Source: a virus
Lineage: Duplodnaviria > Heunggongvirae > Uroviricota > Caudoviricetes
Reading direction: 5' to 3' (one strand)
IMG/VR virus record: IMGVR_UViG_2541047895_000008
Coordinates: 1 to 47,766 of that record
DNA: 47,766 bases
Position numbers and translations under genes: made by a program. Of the stretch, positions 33,281-36,699 are shown piece after piece. The notes below the pieces were generated by a model. It saw only the letters and a list, made by a program, of their open reading frames with translations, was not told where the DNA came from and ran no database searches. Numbering within the stretch: position 1 is the stretch's first letter; every line of letters starts with the position of its first letter.

Positions 33281-34339
33281 TTATGCTTTCCACGTCAGAA
33301 CACCCGAATTTCTCGCGTGCATTAAAAAACGAATCAGCAACAACAGCTGGCTGCCGTGTTTTTCTTCAAAATCTTTTACCCCGGCGTGCAGTTCGTTATG
33401 GCATTTACGGCACAGCGGAATAACAAACAAATCGTCAGCCTTTGTTCCCGTCCCTCCCAGTCCATGACCAATGATGTGATGCGGATCATCTGCCTGGTTG
33501 CCACACGTCATGCATTTCTGCGTTTTTACCCAGCGTGTGTATACCGGCATCTCTTCCCGTTGTGGTTTCTGGCGCTGGAGATACTGAGCAGGAGACTCCG
33601 GATCAACGGTGATGCTGACCACCGCCTTTTCCTGTGGTGGGATTTGTTGCTGGTGGACGTGAGGTGGCAGCGCAATATTTTTTGTGCGCTGCTTCAGTAT
33701 GCTGGTGGCTGTCTGCTCTCCCGGTACAATATCGCTCTCGCGGTGTACTGAGCGGATTTTTTCCGCACGTAACCCCAGAGAACGACGTAATACCGCCTCC
33801 GGTAGCGCGTCCGCCACCTGATTGCAGACCGCCCACCAGGATAATTCAGCCAGCGATAATTCCCGCGCCTGCGTGCCATTCATTGCATGGCGTATGACGT
33901 CAATCATCCAGGCTGTCAGATTTTGTTGAGCAAGTTGCCCGAGTGATTCGGATGTCTGGTCACGCAACTGGTTGTCGCAGTGCCAGCACAACACCATCGC
34001 GCCAGCACCGTAACGGTGAATGACGGTTTCACTATGGTGATAATCGCCGTGTGGCCACTGGCAGGATTTAACATGGCGTAACAGCCAGTCAGACAGCGCA
34101 CCAACACCACCAGCAGCGCGAATCACCCGTTCGTTGCTGAAAAATGGCAGTAATGAGTCATCTTCCGCCAGCGGCTGGCGGACGGCAGGAACGACACCGG
34201 ACGGCAGATTGCGCATGCTTTTCGGTTCCGGCTCCACGAGCACTCGAGGATTGTGAAATACCTGCATGGATTCACGACCTGGCTTAAGGACCACCAGCCC
34301 GAGTTCCGGCACCAGAACAGGTCTAAGTAATACCCGCAC
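33281..34339 (-). CDS. DUF968-family protein (YdfU-like, HNH-like C-terminal motif)
   Basis: C-terminal ..CMTCGNQADDPHHIIGHGLGGTGTKADD..IPLCRKCHNELH.. ; GTG start with GGAGG SD, stop-start coupled to the upstream gene. Confidence 0.7.
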   Translation of the reverse strand: MRVLLRPVLVPELGLVVLKPGRESMQVFHNPRVLVEPEPKSMRNLPSGVVPAVRQPLAEDDSLLPFFSNERVIRAAGGVGALSDWLLRHVKSCQWPHGDYHHSETVIHRYGAGAMVLCWHCDNQLRDQTSESLGQLAQQNLTAWMIDVIRHAMNGTQARELSLAELSWWAVCNQVADALPEAVLRRSLGLRAEKIRSVHRESDIVPGEQTATSILKQRTKNIALPPHVHQQQIPPQEKAVVSITVDPESPAQYLQRQKPQREEMPVYTRWVKTQKCMTCGNQADDPHHIIGHGLGGTGTKADDLFVIPLCRKCHNELHAGVKDFEEKHGSQLLLLIRFLMHARNSGVLTWKA

Positions 34340-34340
34340 G

Positions 34341-34619
34341 TTACCTCCAGATCCGTTGCTGGTATGTGCGGGATGAACGCGGTGGGCGTTCGGAGTAAGG
34401 GAGTCTGACTGAGATTATCCAGTGACGGTAGTCGAGGCTAAGAGCTTTCTTAACCTCGTATCCGCGCCTGCGGTAACACTGAATTATCCATTCCGCCTGC
34501 TCTTCAGTGCATGGAGGATGCTGGAACCAGTCTGATTTGAATGCGTGAAAACGCCGTCCGCACCTACTGGCAAAGACGGCAGAATCATTAGAATTGTGTA
34601 ATTTGGTATCGTGCGCCAT
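34341..34619 (-). CDS. Hypothetical 92-aa protein (between hok and DUF968)
   Basis: Start moved to the internal Met because the ORF-track extension overlaps the hok terminator hairpin. Confidence 0.45.
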   Translation of the reverse strand: MAHDTKLHNSNDSAVFASRCGRRFHAFKSDWFQHPPCTEEQAEWIIQCYRRRGYEVKKALSLDYRHWIISVRLPYSERPPRSSRTYQQRIWR

Positions 34620-34681
34620 CGGTTGTCTCTGCTGGCGCAGCAGGTGCCAGTTGTTCAGGCTGGCGTGCGAATTGTAAACCA

Positions 34682-34708
34682 GAATGCCAGGAAAAAACAA
34701 AACCCGCC
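34682..34708 (-). terminator. Rho-independent terminator downstream of hok
   Basis: aacccgc-ttcg-gcgggtt followed by ttgtttttt on the - strand. Confidence 0.65.
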
Positions 34709-34786
34709 GAAGCGGGTTACGTGCGGGTGCGTTGAGGATGCCTGACACATCAGAGGTGGCGAGGGATTTCTCCCTCGCCTGGTCTC

Positions 34787-34942
34787 TTACTCCTCAGGTT
34801 CGTAAGCAGTGAAGACAGCGACCTCCGTCTGGCCGGTTCGGATTCGTACCTCGCAGAGGTCTTTCCTCGTTACCAGTGCCGTCACAATGACGGTTAAACA
34901 GATGACGATCAGGGCGATTAACATCGCCTTTTGCTGCTTCAT
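34787..34942 (-). CDS. hokD: Hok/Gef-family type I toxin (HokD/RelF-like)
   Basis: MKQQKAMLIALIVICLTVIVTALVTRKDLCEVRIRTGQTEVAVFTAYEPEE (51 aa); AGGAG SD; structured leader upstream. Confidence 0.85.
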   Translation of the reverse strand: MKQQKAMLIALIVICLTVIVTALVTRKDLCEVRIRTGQTEVAVFTAYEPEE

Positions 34943-35641
34943 AGCCTGCTTCTCCTTGCCTTTCGGCACGTAAGAGGCTAACCTACATGTGTTCAGCATG
35001 GATTGAGCCTCAGATTAATGTTAAGCGTCTTGCAGGACGCGTAATGTTAACTGGGGCTTTTCTCTATCTGCCGTTGGTGTTCATGCCCGAGGCAGATAGC
35101 CTCAAGCACCCACAGCCATTCTACTTAACTACCGTTACCTCGCCAATATGAAATCAGTCAGAAAGGCGATCCATAAGAACAACAGCAAGGCAATAAATTG
35201 CCATTACAGCAGCAATAGCCAGCGCACATTTGAGAACAAGCACCACAACCTCCTGTATTGGACGTACACCAGTCCTGATAAATATGAGGCTGTCTCGTCA
35301 GTGATTCAATACAACTATTGGGTATAGTTTCTGTGATTTTGTTCTGTAGAAATGGAACACGACAACCAGTCACCACCAGCACTTCTTTAAATACGCCAAG
35401 TCCGACGCAAGCTAACCTTCTAGTCCGCTTTGAGCGAGAAGCGGACGTTCAATGTGATAAAGCTCAGGAACATTGTCGTTGATGATGATAAAGAGGATCA
35501 GACTAACTTAGCACTTCTCATCACGTTGATAAGGCATAGAAATTACAAACACTATTGTGAATATCGTTTTACTATAGTAAATTCAAGTAAGTTCTTTTCG
35601 TTCGTTATTACACAAAATAAAGTTCACTCTAAGGTTGAAAA

Positions 35642-36085
35642 ATGTTAGATATCAGAATGTCACGACCATCTGAAGCAGATGAGATCATACAAATCTGGAA
35701 GAGTTCAGTGGATGCTACCCACGACTTTCTTACAGGTCATGACCGACAAGAAATCGAAAAAGAAGTTGTCGGCTTTTTCTCAGAAACTCCTGTATGGGTT
35801 GCAACAAATCAGGATGACCAACCGCTAGGATTTATGTTTTTGCATAAGGGCCATCTGGAGGCACTTTTTGTAGCAGGCTCTGCTCGCGGACTTGGCGTCG
35901 GAAAACGTTTGATCTCTCATGCACTGGCACTGCATCCAGAGCTAAGCGTTGATGTAAATGAACAAAACCAGCAGGCTGTAGGGTTTTATCAGCATATGGG
36001 TTTTAAGGTATCAGGGCGTTCCGATCTGGATAATCAGGGAAGGCCATACCCCTTGTTGCATCTGAGAATGGCCAATAACATGTAA
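35642..36085 (+). CDS. GNAT N-acetyltransferase, YjaB-like
   Basis: ..WKSSVDATHDFL..PVWVA..FMFLHKGHLEALFV..RGLGVGKRLISHAL..VDVNEQNQQAVGFYQHMGFKV..GRPYPLL.. parallels E. coli YjaB as remembered. Confidence 0.7.
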   Translation: MLDIRMSRPSEADEIIQIWKSSVDATHDFLTGHDRQEIEKEVVGFFSETPVWVATNQDDQPLGFMFLHKGHLEALFVAGSARGLGVGKRLISHALALHPELSVDVNEQNQQAVGFYQHMGFKVSGRSDLDNQGRPYPLLHLRMANNM

Positions 36086-36105
36086 CCAATGTGGCAGAGA
36101 AGATA

Positions 36106-36690
36106 TCATTGATTTTTTTGGCTAAAAGCCACGATGTAAGAACAGCTCTGCTCACTATCTGGATTGCTCATTTGGTACTCGCTTGCAAAGGTAAGGGCAA
36201 GACAGTCACCGGCACGTAAATGATGGGTCTGATTTTTGACTCGAAAATCAAGGCTACCACTCATCACCCAAAGCGTTTGCCCGGAAAGATGCTCATTTGC
36301 GGAGGCGGGTATCGTCAACTCACCCATTGCAGGAATTTCAACTTTGATCAGTTCCGGGCATGCCCCCGCAGGAGACAAAGACCAACGAGTGATGCCTGAT
36401 TGCTCATCCGTCCAGTGCTGTTGCTGATGAGCAAAACGAACCAGGGAATTCTGATGTTGCTCAAGCTCTGCAAAGAGTTTAGATAGCGTTACATTCATGG
36501 CGTTGGCCAGGCGGCTAAGGATAGTTGCACTAGGGCTGGAGATGCCTCGTTCAATCTTACTAATCATGGCCTGACTGACGCCCGATCGTTGAGCAAGCTC
36601 TGTTACAGTCAAATTGCGAGCCTTCCTGTGTTTAAGCAATAAACGTGCAATATCGCTATCTACTATCTGATTTTTAGATTTTTTATCCAT
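36106..36690 (-). CDS. XRE-family HTH regulator with C-terminal cupin domain
   Basis: ..NLTVTELAQRSGVSQAMISKIERG.. HTH then cupin-like half; start set at the internal Met with SD gaggg. Confidence 0.65.
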   Translation of the reverse strand: MDKKSKNQIVDSDIARLLLKHRKARNLTVTELAQRSGVSQAMISKIERGISSPSATILSRLANAMNVTLSKLFAELEQHQNSLVRFAHQQQHWTDEQSGITRWSLSPAGACPELIKVEIPAMGELTIPASANEHLSGQTLWVMSGSLDFRVKNQTHHLRAGDCLALTFASEYQMSNPDSEQSCSYIVAFSQKNQ

Positions 36691-36699
36691 TTCAGCCCT

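What the first reader, a model, noticed from the sequence alone, without database searches (positions are those of the whole stretch)
35642..36690. Convergent YjaB-like GNAT and XRE-cupin regulator pair wedged between hok and the IS110 element
Neither gene is typical of a lambdoid nin region. The GNAT matches a housekeeping-type acetyltransferase, not the larger tRNA-acetylating toxins, and the genes are convergent, so a toxin-antitoxin role is unlikely. The cargo may have arrived with, or been fixed next to, the IS.
Basis: partly seen in the sequence, partly recalled or inferred. Interest (0 to 1): 0.4.

Follow-up and report, generated by a model that had tools for sequence, protein, structure and literature searches.

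The report
Mobile acetyltransferase-plus-sensor cassette in prophage
The two genes are a self-contained, widely travelled cassette (a YjaB-type acetyltransferase and its probable small-molecule-sensing repressor) sitting in a hairpin-bounded cargo slot of the prophage; the neighbouring insertion sequence did not bring it, but was guided by its own RNA into one of the cassette's boundary hairpins.

Summary
A 147-aa YjaB-family GNAT (35642-36085, +) and a 194-aa XRE-HTH/cupin regulator (36106-36690, -) lie tail to tail, 20 bp apart, between hok/sok and an IS110-family element.

The "not a toxin-antitoxin pair" reading is supported. Phage Evi, two IMG/VR contigs and every other high-identity E. 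coli copy inspected carry the pair without the IS.

The pair is a discrete ~1.44-kb cassette bounded by two REP-like hairpins (stem GTCCGCTT/AAGCGGAC). The same cassette (≥97.5% identity) sits in P2-like prophages in the fun(Z) slot and in two kinds of E. coli island. Copies at 84-88% identity sit on Pantoea plasmids, where it is the published "OVR-C".

In phage Tritos the same two hairpins hold a defence candidate (PDC-S15) instead.

The GNAT-regulator pairing is conserved out to Acinetobacter, together with a two-site operator-like block in the GNAT promoter.

The most likely mechanism is a ligand-released local repressor controlling an acetyl-CoA-dependent N-acetyltransferase of unknown substrate.

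The ISEsa2-like IS carries a bridge-RNA-like fold whose guides match the hairpin it split.

The parts
35642..36085 (+). YjaB-family GNAT N-acetyltransferase, 147 aa. It has the acetyl-CoA motif RGLGVG at residues 82-87, and Tyr116 aligns with the catalytic Tyr117 of YjaB.
   Evidence: NCBIfam PRK10514 230.5 bits, cutoff 134. Pfam Acetyltransf_10/_7/_1. PDB 2KCW E=7.7e-50. 55% identity, motif and Tyr positions. Role of Y117 from PMC6199490.
36106..36690 (-). XRE-type HTH plus cupin transcriptional regulator, 194 aa. The start is the ATG at 36690, which is preceded by a conserved GAGGG ribosome-binding site.
   Evidence: HTH_3 E=7e-17; Cupin_2 21.3 bits, below the 27.2 cutoff. AF2 pLDDT 82.5, with helices at 11-78 and a beta domain at 92-191. 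Foldseek best match 1Y9Q, TM 0.71/0.77. Start codon and RBS invariant in 15 sequences.
35550..35583 (+). Candidate operator/promoter block of the GNAT gene. It holds two CACTATwGTrAAT sites 20 bp apart, and the second lies in the palindrome TTACTATAGTAA. It sits 60-92 nt upstream of the ATG.
   Evidence: It is the only near-invariant non-coding block upstream of the GNAT across 15 sequences from 10 or more genera. It is retained with the same 20-bp spacing in Acinetobacter. Binding by the regulator is inferred, not shown.
36712..36728 (-). Invariant block GTAATGGCATAATCAGG in the regulator's own promoter region, with an extended -10-like TGgCATAAT.
   Evidence: Footprint over 15 sequences. The consensus sigma-70 scan found nothing in this region, so the promoter assignment is inference.
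35423..35446 (.). Left boundary hairpin ('type B'): GTCCGCTT-TGAGCGAG-AAGCGGAC, followed by GTT.
   Evidence: Homology with the P2-like, Pantoea and island copies starts here. Homology with Tritos, which has a different cargo, ends here. It is the only intact copy of the motif in the 47.8-kb window.
36841..36848 (.). Left arm (GTCCGCTT) of the right boundary hairpin ('type A'). The IS separates it from the rest of the hairpin.
   Evidence: Evi, P2-like, island and Tritos copies have the intact hairpin AAC-GTCCGCTT-TTGGCACA-AAGCGGAC.
38345..38361 (.). Loop and right arm, (T)TTGGCACAAAGCGGAC, of the type A hairpin. This is the true right end of the cassette.
   Evidence: Evi alignment resumes at 38345. 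P2-like homology extends through this hairpin once the IS is removed in silico.
36849..38344 (-). ISEsa2-like IS110-family insertion sequence, 1496 bp, with the transposase at 36876..38114. It is a secondary insertion into the type A hairpin.
   Evidence: Empty site in Evi. Full-length 86% match to ISEsa2 copies. Five independent insertions all lie after GTC(C/T)GCTT of such hairpins. NCBIfam 'IS110 family RNA-guided transposase' 171 bits.
38150..38320 (-). Bridge-RNA-like non-coding region of the IS, folding into two stem-loops with internal loops. Target guides are TTGTGCCA (38268-38275) and CCGCTTTG (38238-38245). Donor guides are CTCAGGGC (38191-38198) and TGACTATA (38169-38176).
   Evidence: The guides match the target flanks and the IS ends. 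0 of 20,000 shuffles reproduce all four matches. Fold z = -3.8 with the guides in internal loops. The guide covaries with the target loop type among IS variants.

Best explanation
The two genes form one self-contained regulatory-enzymatic module that moves as a unit.

The XRE-cupin protein is a local repressor. As a dimer or tetramer it binds the conserved two-site block in the GNAT promoter (35550-35583). It is released when a small molecule binds its metal-free cupin domain. It is made from its own promoter (an extended -10-like element).

Once derepressed, the YjaB-family GNAT uses acetyl-CoA to N-acetylate its substrate. That substrate is either the inducing or a related amine-containing compound (modification or detoxification), or protein lysines as shown for E. 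coli YjaB.

No terminator separates the convergent genes, so GNAT transcription probably reads antisense into the regulator gene. That could sharpen the switch.

The module is phage cargo (a moron), not a phage function. It sits in a cargo slot delimited by two REP-like hairpins. It has been exchanged between lambdoid prophages, P2-like prophages (fun(Z) slot), E. coli islands and Pantoea plasmids, most simply by short-homology recombination at the hairpins.

The adjacent IS arrived later, guided by its bridge RNA into the right-hand hairpin.

Shown: domain identities, pair conservation, cassette boundaries, the IS-free state, the conserved promoter blocks, and the guide/target matches. Inferred: repression, ligand control, the acetylation substrate, and the recombination mechanism.
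For: (1) Identities. The GNAT is a YjaB equivalog with the acetyl-CoA motif and catalytic Tyr intact. The regulator is HTH plus cupin by sequence and fold. The cupin has no conserved His cluster among the invariant columns, which fits a sensor rather than an enzyme.

(2) Coupling. The convergent pair with a ~20-bp gap is kept in Raoultella, Serratia (two species), Mixta, Cedecea, Kluyvera, Edwardsiella, Pantoea and E. coli, with unrelated neighbours. It is also kept in Acinetobacter (regulator 60% identical, GNAT 74%). Two of three ~40%-identical regulators sit next to other GNATs.

(3) Conserved DNA is limited to ~35550-36770, that is the genes plus their promoters. The invariant two-site block upstream of the GNAT persists in Acinetobacter.

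(4) XRE-cupin factors are experimentally local repressors of adjacent enzyme genes and are exchanged with them by HGT (PMC7901475).

(5) Cargo status. The identical cassette is IS-free in Evi, L050 and L051. At >=97.5% identity it occurs in the P2-like G-FI slot and in two island types, always bracketed by hairpins B and A. Tritos and P2 itself have other genes between the same hairpins. The Pantoea copy is the published OVR-C.

(6) IS.
Against: - No experiment links this regulator to this promoter. The conserved block could be a promoter or a site for another factor.
- The simple sigma-70 scan found no consensus promoter.
- Variants with a broken regulator and an intact GNAT show that tight repression is not essential.
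- One regulator paralogue (L017, 75% identity) has no GNAT nearby.
- The substrate is unknown. YjaB's demonstrated activity is protein-lysine acetylation on overexpression, which needs no small-molecule inducer.
- The slot's other occupants are mostly defence genes, which favours the defence rival.
Confidence: 0.6

Rival explanations
1. The pair is an uncharacterised anti-phage or inter-phage competition system. The regulator keeps the GNAT low or senses infection, and the GNAT acetylates a phage or host target to block superinfecting phages.
For: The cassette occupies slots that otherwise hold defence genes.
- In Tritos the same two hairpins hold the FRG-domain PDC-S15 candidate.
- P2's T5-excluding fun(Z) lies in the equivalent P2 slot.
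- Cargo next to the same hairpin in other viral contigs is a type IV retron (RT_IV + 2TM_IV), NsnA, PDC-M38A/B or PDC-S50.
- One E. coli copy lies beside a type I RM subunit and an integrase remnant.
- It sits next to hok/sok.
Against: - The GNAT has no hit in PADLOC at E<=1, and the regulator hits only generic HTH models.
- The pair is common in ordinary chromosomal and plasmid contexts with metabolic neighbours in many genera.
- It is 55% identical to a housekeeping enzyme.
- In other phages it travels with fitness or virulence morons (sitABCD, an omptin) rather than defence genes.
- Two of seven alternative cargoes also lack defence hits.
Confidence: 0.17
2. The pair is a type II toxin-antitoxin system. 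The GNAT would be a tRNA-acetylating toxin and the XRE protein its antitoxin.
For: GNAT toxins with DNA-binding antitoxins exist (AtaT/TacT/KacT families; own knowledge). The pair is on mobile DNA next to another addiction module, hok/sok. NCBIfam gives weak HipB/Y4mF-type HTH hits for the regulator.
Against: - No AtaT/TacT/KacT/ItaT chain appears among the PDB sequence hits even at E<=10, while YjaB scores 7.7e-50.
- The genes are convergent with separate conserved promoters, not an operon.
- The partner carries a cupin sensor domain rather than an RHH/DUF1778 antitoxin.
- An intact GNAT persists where the regulator is deleted or fragmented (P. vagans L007, E. hoshinae L018).
Confidence: 0.03
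3. One reading: the pair is cargo brought in by, or stabilised next to, the IS110-family element.
For: Physical adjacency in this window: the IS end lies 158 bp from the regulator start.
Against: - The same prophage type has the pair with an intact, empty target site (Evi; L050, L051).
- The cassette occurs in four or more other contexts without the IS.
- IS110-family elements carry no passenger genes here. The IS ends are defined by full-length matches to ISEsa2 copies.
- The insertion point is predicted by the IS's own guide sequences.
Confidence: 0.02

Closest known systems
E. coli YjaB (PDB 2KCW), a GNAT protein-lysine acetyltransferase (Christensen et al. 2018, PMC6199490)
   Same: Same length (147 aa) and 55% identity over 141 residues. 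It passes the NCBIfam equivalog cutoff. The acetyl-CoA motif and the catalytic Tyr (Y117 in YjaB, Y116 here) are conserved.
   Different: It is an accessory, mobile paralogue. It is always paired with a convergent XRE-cupin regulator and has its own conserved operator-like promoter block. Housekeeping yjaB has neither feature as far as is known (own knowledge for the K-12 locus). Substrate untested.
XRE-cupin local repressors (PuuR of E. coli; PauR, PsdR, ErfA, PA0535 of P. aeruginosa; Trouillon et al. 2021, PMC7901475)
   Same: N-terminal XRE HTH plus C-terminal cupin. The fold matches 1Y9Q. It is tightly conserved next to a single enzyme gene and is transferred with it, as described for the family.
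   Different: It is not a PuuR orthologue (44.5 bits against a cutoff of 211). The partner is a GNAT in convergent rather than divergent or operonic orientation. It is carried on phages. Ligand and operator are not determined.
[quoted passage not shown] 2018, PMC5817063)
   Same: The same two genes (yjaB 444 bp, 'puuR' 585 bp) with the same geometry, 84% DNA identity and the same flanking hairpins, on the PNA 97-1R plasmid.
   Different: The host and replicon differ (plant-associated Pantoea plasmid against an E. coli prophage). OVR-C was only correlated with onion pathogenicity, and no function was shown.
GNAT toxins of type II TA systems (AtaT, TacT, KacT, ItaT)
   Same: GNAT fold, small size, and location on mobile DNA.
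   Different: No detectable sequence relationship beyond the superfamily. There is no upstream RHH antitoxin gene. The genes are convergent. The GNAT is tolerated without its partner.
Phage P2 fun(Z) and other lysogenic-conversion or defence cargo at phage hotspots (Rousset et al. 2022, PMC9122126)
   Same: Non-essential cargo in the same G-FI slot of P2-like phages. It is bracketed by recognisable copies of the same hairpins. Cargo is swapped between elements.
   Different: No defence phenotype or defence-family membership is known for the pair. Rousset's P2 hotspot is the cos-proximal old/tin locus, not this one.
IS621/IS110-family bridge-RNA-guided insertion sequences
   Same: A DEDD transposase plus a 5' non-coding RNA with two internal loops. 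The loop guides match the target flanks and the IS ends. The target is a REP-like palindrome. How IS621 works is from my own knowledge.
   Different: It is an ISEsa2-like element at 86% identity. The targets are GTCCGCTT-N8-AAGCGGAC hairpins, not the E. coli REP. Natural guide variants (TGTGCCA against TGAGCGA) match two loop types. It is not part of the GNAT module.

Membership tests
GNAT superfamily / YjaB family (NCBIfam PRK10514 equivalog) | Whole-protein score above the curated cutoff | tested here: met
   230.5 bits against 134. Pfam Acetyltransf_10/_7/_1 all above gathering scores.
GNAT superfamily / YjaB family | Acetyl-CoA binding motif (R/Q-x-x-G-x-G/A) and the general-acid Tyr equivalent to YjaB Y117 | tested here: met
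   RGLGVG at 82-87; Y116 aligns with Y117. Y117A/F abolishes YjaB activity (PMC6199490).
GNAT superfamily / YjaB family | Acetyl-CoA-dependent (lysine) N-acetyltransferase activity | not testable with these tools
   Needs an enzyme assay or acetyl-proteomics.
XRE-cupin transcription factors | N-terminal XRE/Cro-C1 HTH domain | tested here: met
   HTH_3 61.7 bits against 23. Five-helix bundle at residues 11-78 in the model.
XRE-cupin transcription factors | C-terminal cupin beta-barrel | tested here: met
   By sequence alone it is sub-threshold (Cupin_2 21.3 against 27.2). By fold, 1Y9Q aligns over 186 columns at TM 0.71/0.77, and isolated cupins match at TM 0.7-0.77 normalised to the target. 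Cupin_2 is precomputed for several homologues.
XRE-cupin transcription factors | Represses an adjacent enzyme gene; conserved regulator/target neighbourhood | tested here: inconclusive
   The neighbourhood is conserved from E. coli to Acinetobacter, and a conserved operator-like block is present. Repression itself is untested.
PuuR (NCBIfam PRK09943 equivalog) | Score above the equivalog cutoff | tested here: not met
   44.5 bits against 211. The 'PuuR' labels in some annotations are architecture-level only.
GNAT-type type II toxin-antitoxin systems (AtaRT/TacAT/KacAT) | Toxin related to AtaT/TacT/KacT | tested here: not met
   None of these solved toxins appears among 35 PDB hits at E<=10. 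No such NCBIfam hit at E<=0.01.
GNAT-type type II toxin-antitoxin systems | Antitoxin gene upstream in the same operon; toxin not tolerated without the antitoxin | tested here: not met
   The genes are convergent with separate promoters. An intact GNAT sits beside a deleted or fragmented regulator in L007 and L018.
Known or candidate anti-phage defence systems (PADLOC-DB v2) | Match to a defence-system protein model | tested here: not met
   GNAT: 0 hits at E<=1. Regulator: generic HTH components only (HTH_VI, RmrA N-terminus, CapH).
IS-borne passenger gene / composite transposon | Cargo lies inside the IS ends or is always linked to the IS | tested here: not met
   The IS ends are at 36849 and 38344, outside both genes. 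IS-free identical copies exist.
Integron gene cassette (attC-bounded) | An attC site recognised by an attC covariance model, with an integron integrase nearby | not testable with these tools
   The composite A-18 nt-B sites (~66 bp, AAC...GTT ends) on island flanks resemble attC in outline. But phage copies are cut between A and B, not at G|TT. No intI was seen and no attC model was available.

The most novel reading that the evidence does not exclude
This reading has two parts.

First, the GNAT plus XRE-cupin pair would be a new regulated-acetyltransferase anti-phage or phage-competition system.

Second, the GTCCGCTT-N8-AAGCGGAC hairpins (types A and B, with heterospecific loops) would be the junction sites of a cassette-exchange system. 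That system would shuttle defence and fitness cargo between otherwise unrelated mobile elements: lambdoid phages, P2-like phages, P4/integrase islands and Pantoea plasmids. ISEsa2-type bridge-RNA elements would have evolved guide variants for each hairpin type.
Probability: 0.15. Interest if true: 0.75.

Novelty: new member of a known kind. Interest (0 to 1): 0.45.

Why it matters
On their own, the two genes are an uncharacterised but unexceptional accessory module: a sensor-repressor with an acetyltransferase. Three things raise their value.

1. The identical cassette is shared by lambdoid phages, P2-like phages, E. coli islands and Pantoea plasmids. It equals the published onion-virulence-associated OVR-C, so one functional assay would inform several fields.

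2. Its boundaries expose a hairpin-delimited cargo slot that also holds defence systems, including P2's classical fun(Z). This gives a concrete, testable handle on how phage hotspots swap cargo, a process recent work on P2/P4 hotspots says still needs to be elucidated (PMC13586616).

3. The neighbouring IS offers a natural example of bridge-RNA guide reprogramming between two target variants.

Tried and rejected
- A PADLOC scan of both proteins gave no defence-family assignment.
- PHROGs gave only generic 'acetyltransferase' and 'transcriptional regulator'.
- The consensus promoter/terminator scan of 35300-36900 found nothing. Promoter assignments therefore rest on conservation only.
- Rfam found only sok in 34000-39500. 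It has no family for the IS non-coding RNA or the hairpins.
- I looked for a shared operator between the GNAT and regulator promoters. None was convincing. An ATAGTGAAT match upstream of the regulator in E. coli is not conserved in other genera.
- Literature searches for 'YjaB + prophage', for P2-like hotspot + acetyltransferase, and for ISEsa2 target specificity gave nothing on function. Rousset 2022 and the 2026 NAR P2/P4 paper mention no acetyltransferase or GNAT cargo.
- Nilsson et al. 2004 (Mol Biol Evol 21:1) may already describe repeats flanking the P2 Z/fun cargo. It is not held in the library, so prior description of the hairpins could not be checked.
- I considered an integron-cassette reading of the hairpins. 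I set it aside because phage copies are bounded between hairpins A and B, not at a G|TT crossover, and no integrase was seen.
- I considered CRP-site identity for TGTGA-N8-TCAC in the conserved block. The spacing is atypical and it was not pursued.
- The 30-aa hydrophobic ORF at 35154..35246 (-) has no Pfam hit.
Full report
**1. The observation**

The window is a Rac-like lambdoid prophage of E. coli 2015C-4136CT1. At the stated coordinates there is a 147-aa ORF on the + strand (35642-36085). A convergent ORF on the - strand has a conserved start at the ATG at 36690 (194 aa; stop at 36106). The stop codons are 20 bp apart.

The + ORF is a GNAT.
- It hits Pfam Acetyltransf_10/_7/_1.
- It passes the NCBIfam YjaB equivalog PRK10514 at 230.5 bits against a cutoff of 134.
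- It matches the E. coli YjaB structure 2KCW at E = 7.7e-50, with 77/141 identical residues.
- The acetyl-CoA motif RGLGVG is present. The Tyr equivalent to YjaB Y117 is present as Y116. Mutation of Y117 abolishes YjaB-dependent lysine acetylation (PMC6199490).

The - ORF has an XRE HTH (HTH_3, E = 7e-17) and a sub-threshold Cupin_2 hit. An AlphaFold model built on 45 homologues (pLDDT 82.5) shows a five-helix N-domain and a beta-rich C-domain. Its best structural match is the V. cholerae HTH+cupin regulator 1Y9Q (TM 0.71/0.77), followed by HTH-cupin enzymes and isolated cupins.

The neighbours are as described. hokD/sok lie to the left (sok Rfam 113.5 bits). An IS110-family transposase lies to the right.

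**2. The IS did not bring the pair**

Escherichia phage Evi has the same backbone and the pair at 100% identity. The regulator is followed directly by the DUF977 gene. Alignment places the insertion at window 36849-38344 (1496 bp), with a 1-nt ambiguity.
- Two IMG/VR contigs (L050, L051) also have the pair with an empty site. A third (L039) equals the window.
- Of 13 complete E. coli genomes with the cassette at >=95% identity, only the source shows the IS under the match. The five others I inspected have none beside the pair.

**3. What the pair sits in**

Comparing contexts shows a discrete cassette. Homology with unrelated backbones starts at 35422/35423 and, once the IS is removed, ends at 38361.
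- The left end is the hairpin GTCCGCTT-TGAGCGAG-AAGCGGAC, followed by GTT ('type B').
- The right end is AAC followed by GTCCGCTT-TTGGCACA-AAGCGGAC ('type A').
- The two are inverted copies of one element that differ in the loop.
- They are the only copies in the 47.8-kb window.
- Six to eight copies occur per 13 kb on two of the three Pantoea plasmid segments fetched (L005, L007). The strict pattern found none on the third, L006.

The same cassette, bracketed by B on the left and A on the right, occurs at >=97.5% identity in several places:
- P2-like prophages between the tail-fibre-assembly and sheath genes (SCU-115, 300444).
- An island next to a dynamin-family gene (M19, BCE049).
- Next to a type I RM subunit and an integrase remnant (Z247).

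More diverged copies:
- At 84-88% identity it lies on Pantoea plasmids. On the P. ananatis plasmid it is the published 'Onion Virulence Region C' (PMC5817063).
- An ~80% variant lies beside sitABCD at a truncated icd in ExPEC strains.
- The same variant lies beside an omptin at the end of phages PhiR29_1 and PhiR29_2.

The hairpins mark a cargo slot rather than just this cassette.
- Phage Tritos shares the hokD...DUF977 backbone and both hairpins. Between them it carries a 444-aa FRG-domain protein that matches the PADLOC candidate PDC-S15 at E = 1e-98.
- In phage P2 itself the lysogenic-conversion gene fun(Z) is bracketed by degenerate copies of the same hairpins. P2/SCU-115 backbone homology breaks exactly there.
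- An exact-pattern scan of IMG/VR for hairpin B found 16 contigs. In the unrelated ones I examined, the adjacent cargo is a type IV retron (RT_IV + 2TM_IV), NsnA, PDC-M38A/B or PDC-S50, and in two cases nothing recognisable.
- On island flanks the hairpins occur as composite A-18 nt-B units.

The simplest mechanism for the swaps is short-homology recombination at the hairpins, for example by phage Red/RecET-type functions. This is inference. A dedicated site-specific system cannot be excluded. Nilsson et al. 2004 may already have discussed repeats at the P2 Z/fun position, but I could not read it.

**4. Why the IS is there**

The element is 86% identical to ISEsa2 over its full length and is a single copy. 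Five independent insertions of this IS group all lie immediately after GTC(C/T)GCTT of such a hairpin.

The 5' non-coding region folds into two stem-loops with internal loops (z = -3.8).
- The first loop carries TTGTGCCA, identical to the left target flank. It also carries CCGCTTTG, whose CCGCTT matches the complement of the right flank.
- The second loop carries CTCAGGGC, which matches the right IS end, and TGACTATA, the complement of the left IS end.
- None of 20,000 shuffles reproduces all four matches.
- ISEsa2 proper has TGAGCGA in place of TGTGCCA and sits in TGAGCGA-loop hairpins. The window's IS and a third variant have TGTGCCA and sit in TGTGCCA-loop hairpins.

This is the architecture described for IS110-family bridge RNAs (own knowledge; NCBIfam names the protein 'IS110 family RNA-guided transposase'). 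So the cassette attracted the IS, not the reverse.

The insertion lies 158 bp upstream of the regulator start. That is outside the conserved promoter block, so the module is probably still functional. Read-through from the co-oriented transposase gene is possible.

**5. How the pair most likely works**

The pairing is not accidental.
- Every close homologue of the regulator found in one-genome-per-species contigs has the GNAT in the same convergent geometry, but with unrelated neighbours. These are Raoultella, two Serratia species, Mixta, Cedecea, Kluyvera, two unnamed Enterobacteriaceae (an isolate genome and a MAG) and two Edwardsiella species.
- In one of the Edwardsiella species (E. hoshinae) the regulator is fragmented.
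- The exception is a 75%-identical paralogue with no GNAT nearby.
- In Acinetobacter haemolyticus the regulator is 60% identical and the GNAT 74% identical, and they are again convergent.
- Two of three ~40%-identical regulators sit beside unrelated GNATs.

Conserved DNA is confined to ~35550-36770. Within the non-coding parts, two blocks are essentially invariant over 15 sequences.
- One is CACTATTGTGAAt-N7-cACTATAGTAAAT (35550-35583), 60-92 nt upstream of the GNAT start. It holds two similar sites 20 bp apart, and the second lies within a 12-bp palindrome.
- The other is GTAATGGCATAATCAGG, just upstream of the regulator's ribosome-binding site.
- The first block survives, with its spacing, in Acinetobacter, where the flanking DNA is unrelated.

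XRE-cupin factors studied experimentally are local repressors of adjacent enzyme genes, respond to metabolites, and travel with their targets (PMC7901475). I therefore propose the following model.
- The regulator represses the GNAT promoter through the two-site block.
- A small molecule bound by the cupin relieves repression. The invariant columns of that domain contain no His cluster.
- The GNAT then N-acetylates either that class of compound or protein lysines.

There is no terminator-like structure between the genes. Antisense read-through may therefore add feedback. Repression, the ligand and the substrate are all inferred.

**6. Rivals**

- A TA system is very unlikely. There is no similarity to AtaT/TacT/KacT. 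The genes have separate convergent promoters. The partner has a sensor domain. In P. vagans and E. hoshinae an intact GNAT sits beside a deleted or fragmented regulator.
- A defence function is the serious rival, because of the company the cassette keeps in these slots. Against it: PADLOC has no model for the GNAT. The pair is frequent in ordinary chromosomal and plasmid settings. Elsewhere it travels with fitness or virulence morons. I put this at about 0.17.

**7. Comparison, novelty and verdict**

The GNAT is a member of the YjaB family. The regulator is a member of the XRE-cupin class but is not PuuR (44.5 bits against 211). The pair equals Pantoea OVR-C. It is a new, mobile member of a known kind of module, with unknown substrate.

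The finding as written deserves modest interest. The hairpin-bounded, cross-family cargo slot and the guide-matched IS raise it somewhat. Overall interest is 0.45. The most novel unexcluded reading (a new defence system riding a hairpin-based cassette-exchange system) has a probability of about 0.15.

Noticed in passing
window 35423-35446 and 36841-36848 + 38345-38361; also L035 2594/4395, L052 (P2) ~2338-2361 and ~4431-4454, L053-L056: A family of 24-bp hairpins (GTCCGCTT-N8-AAGCGGAC; loops TTGGCACA or TGAGCGAG) brackets exchangeable cargo. It occurs in lambdoid phages (Evi, Tritos), P2-like phages (including fun(Z) of P2 itself), E. coli islands and Pantoea plasmids. On island flanks the hairpins occur as composite A-18 nt-B units. 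I could not check whether they are already described (for example by Nilsson et al. 2004).
   Followed up: partly
window 36849-38344 (IS), bridge-RNA-like region 38150-38320 (-): The IS is ISEsa2-like (86% identity) and a single copy. Its predicted bridge RNA has target guides that match the split hairpin and donor guides that match its own ends. Natural variants carry TGTGCCA or TGAGCGA guides and sit in the matching hairpin type. No literature on ISEsa2 target choice was found.
   Followed up: yes
L035 2915-4249 (phage Tritos); L037, L044, L045, L047 (IMG/VR): Alternative cargo beside the same hairpin is mostly defence-related. Examples are FRG-domain PDC-S15, a type IV retron (RT + 2TM), NsnA with a partner, PDC-M38A/B and PDC-S50. 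Two cargoes (L041, L043) match nothing in PADLOC and could be untested candidates.
   Followed up: partly
window 34787-35111 (-): A complete hok/sok type I toxin-antitoxin locus (hokD-type toxin; sok RNA Rfam 113.5 bits) lies immediately left of the cargo slot. The hok-to-hairpin-B flank (35330-35449) matches roughly 1,600 complete E. coli genomes, so this slot is widespread.
   Followed up: partly
window 35154-35246 (-): An unannotated 30-aa strongly hydrophobic ORF (MVLVLKCALAIAAVMAIYCLAVVLMDRLSD, GTG start) lies between sok and the cassette. It has no Pfam hit. It could be a chance ORF or a small membrane peptide.
   Followed up: partly
L003 10414-10866 (E. coli F11) and L025 (phage PhiR29_1): The ~80% variant of the pair lies at lambdoid prophage ends. 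In F11 it sits beside a second, unrelated GNAT and sitABCD at a truncated icd. In PhiR29 it sits beside an omptin. In these cases it travels with classical fitness or virulence morons.
   Followed up: partly
L006 7387-12814 (P. agglomerans plasmid P1): In P. agglomerans the pair abuts a cluster with glutathione peroxidase, several oxidoreductases, an alkene reductase and a TetR regulator. From memory this resembles the Pantoea allicin-tolerance (alt) cluster. Whether the adjacency is meaningful is unknown.
   Followed up: no
window 36691-36870 (-): Phage Evi's record annotates the regulator as a 254-aa protein starting at a TTG (window 36870). Conservation of the RBS and ATG in 15 genomes supports the 194-aa form. 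The extension is non-coding promoter DNA and runs into the hairpin.
   Followed up: yes
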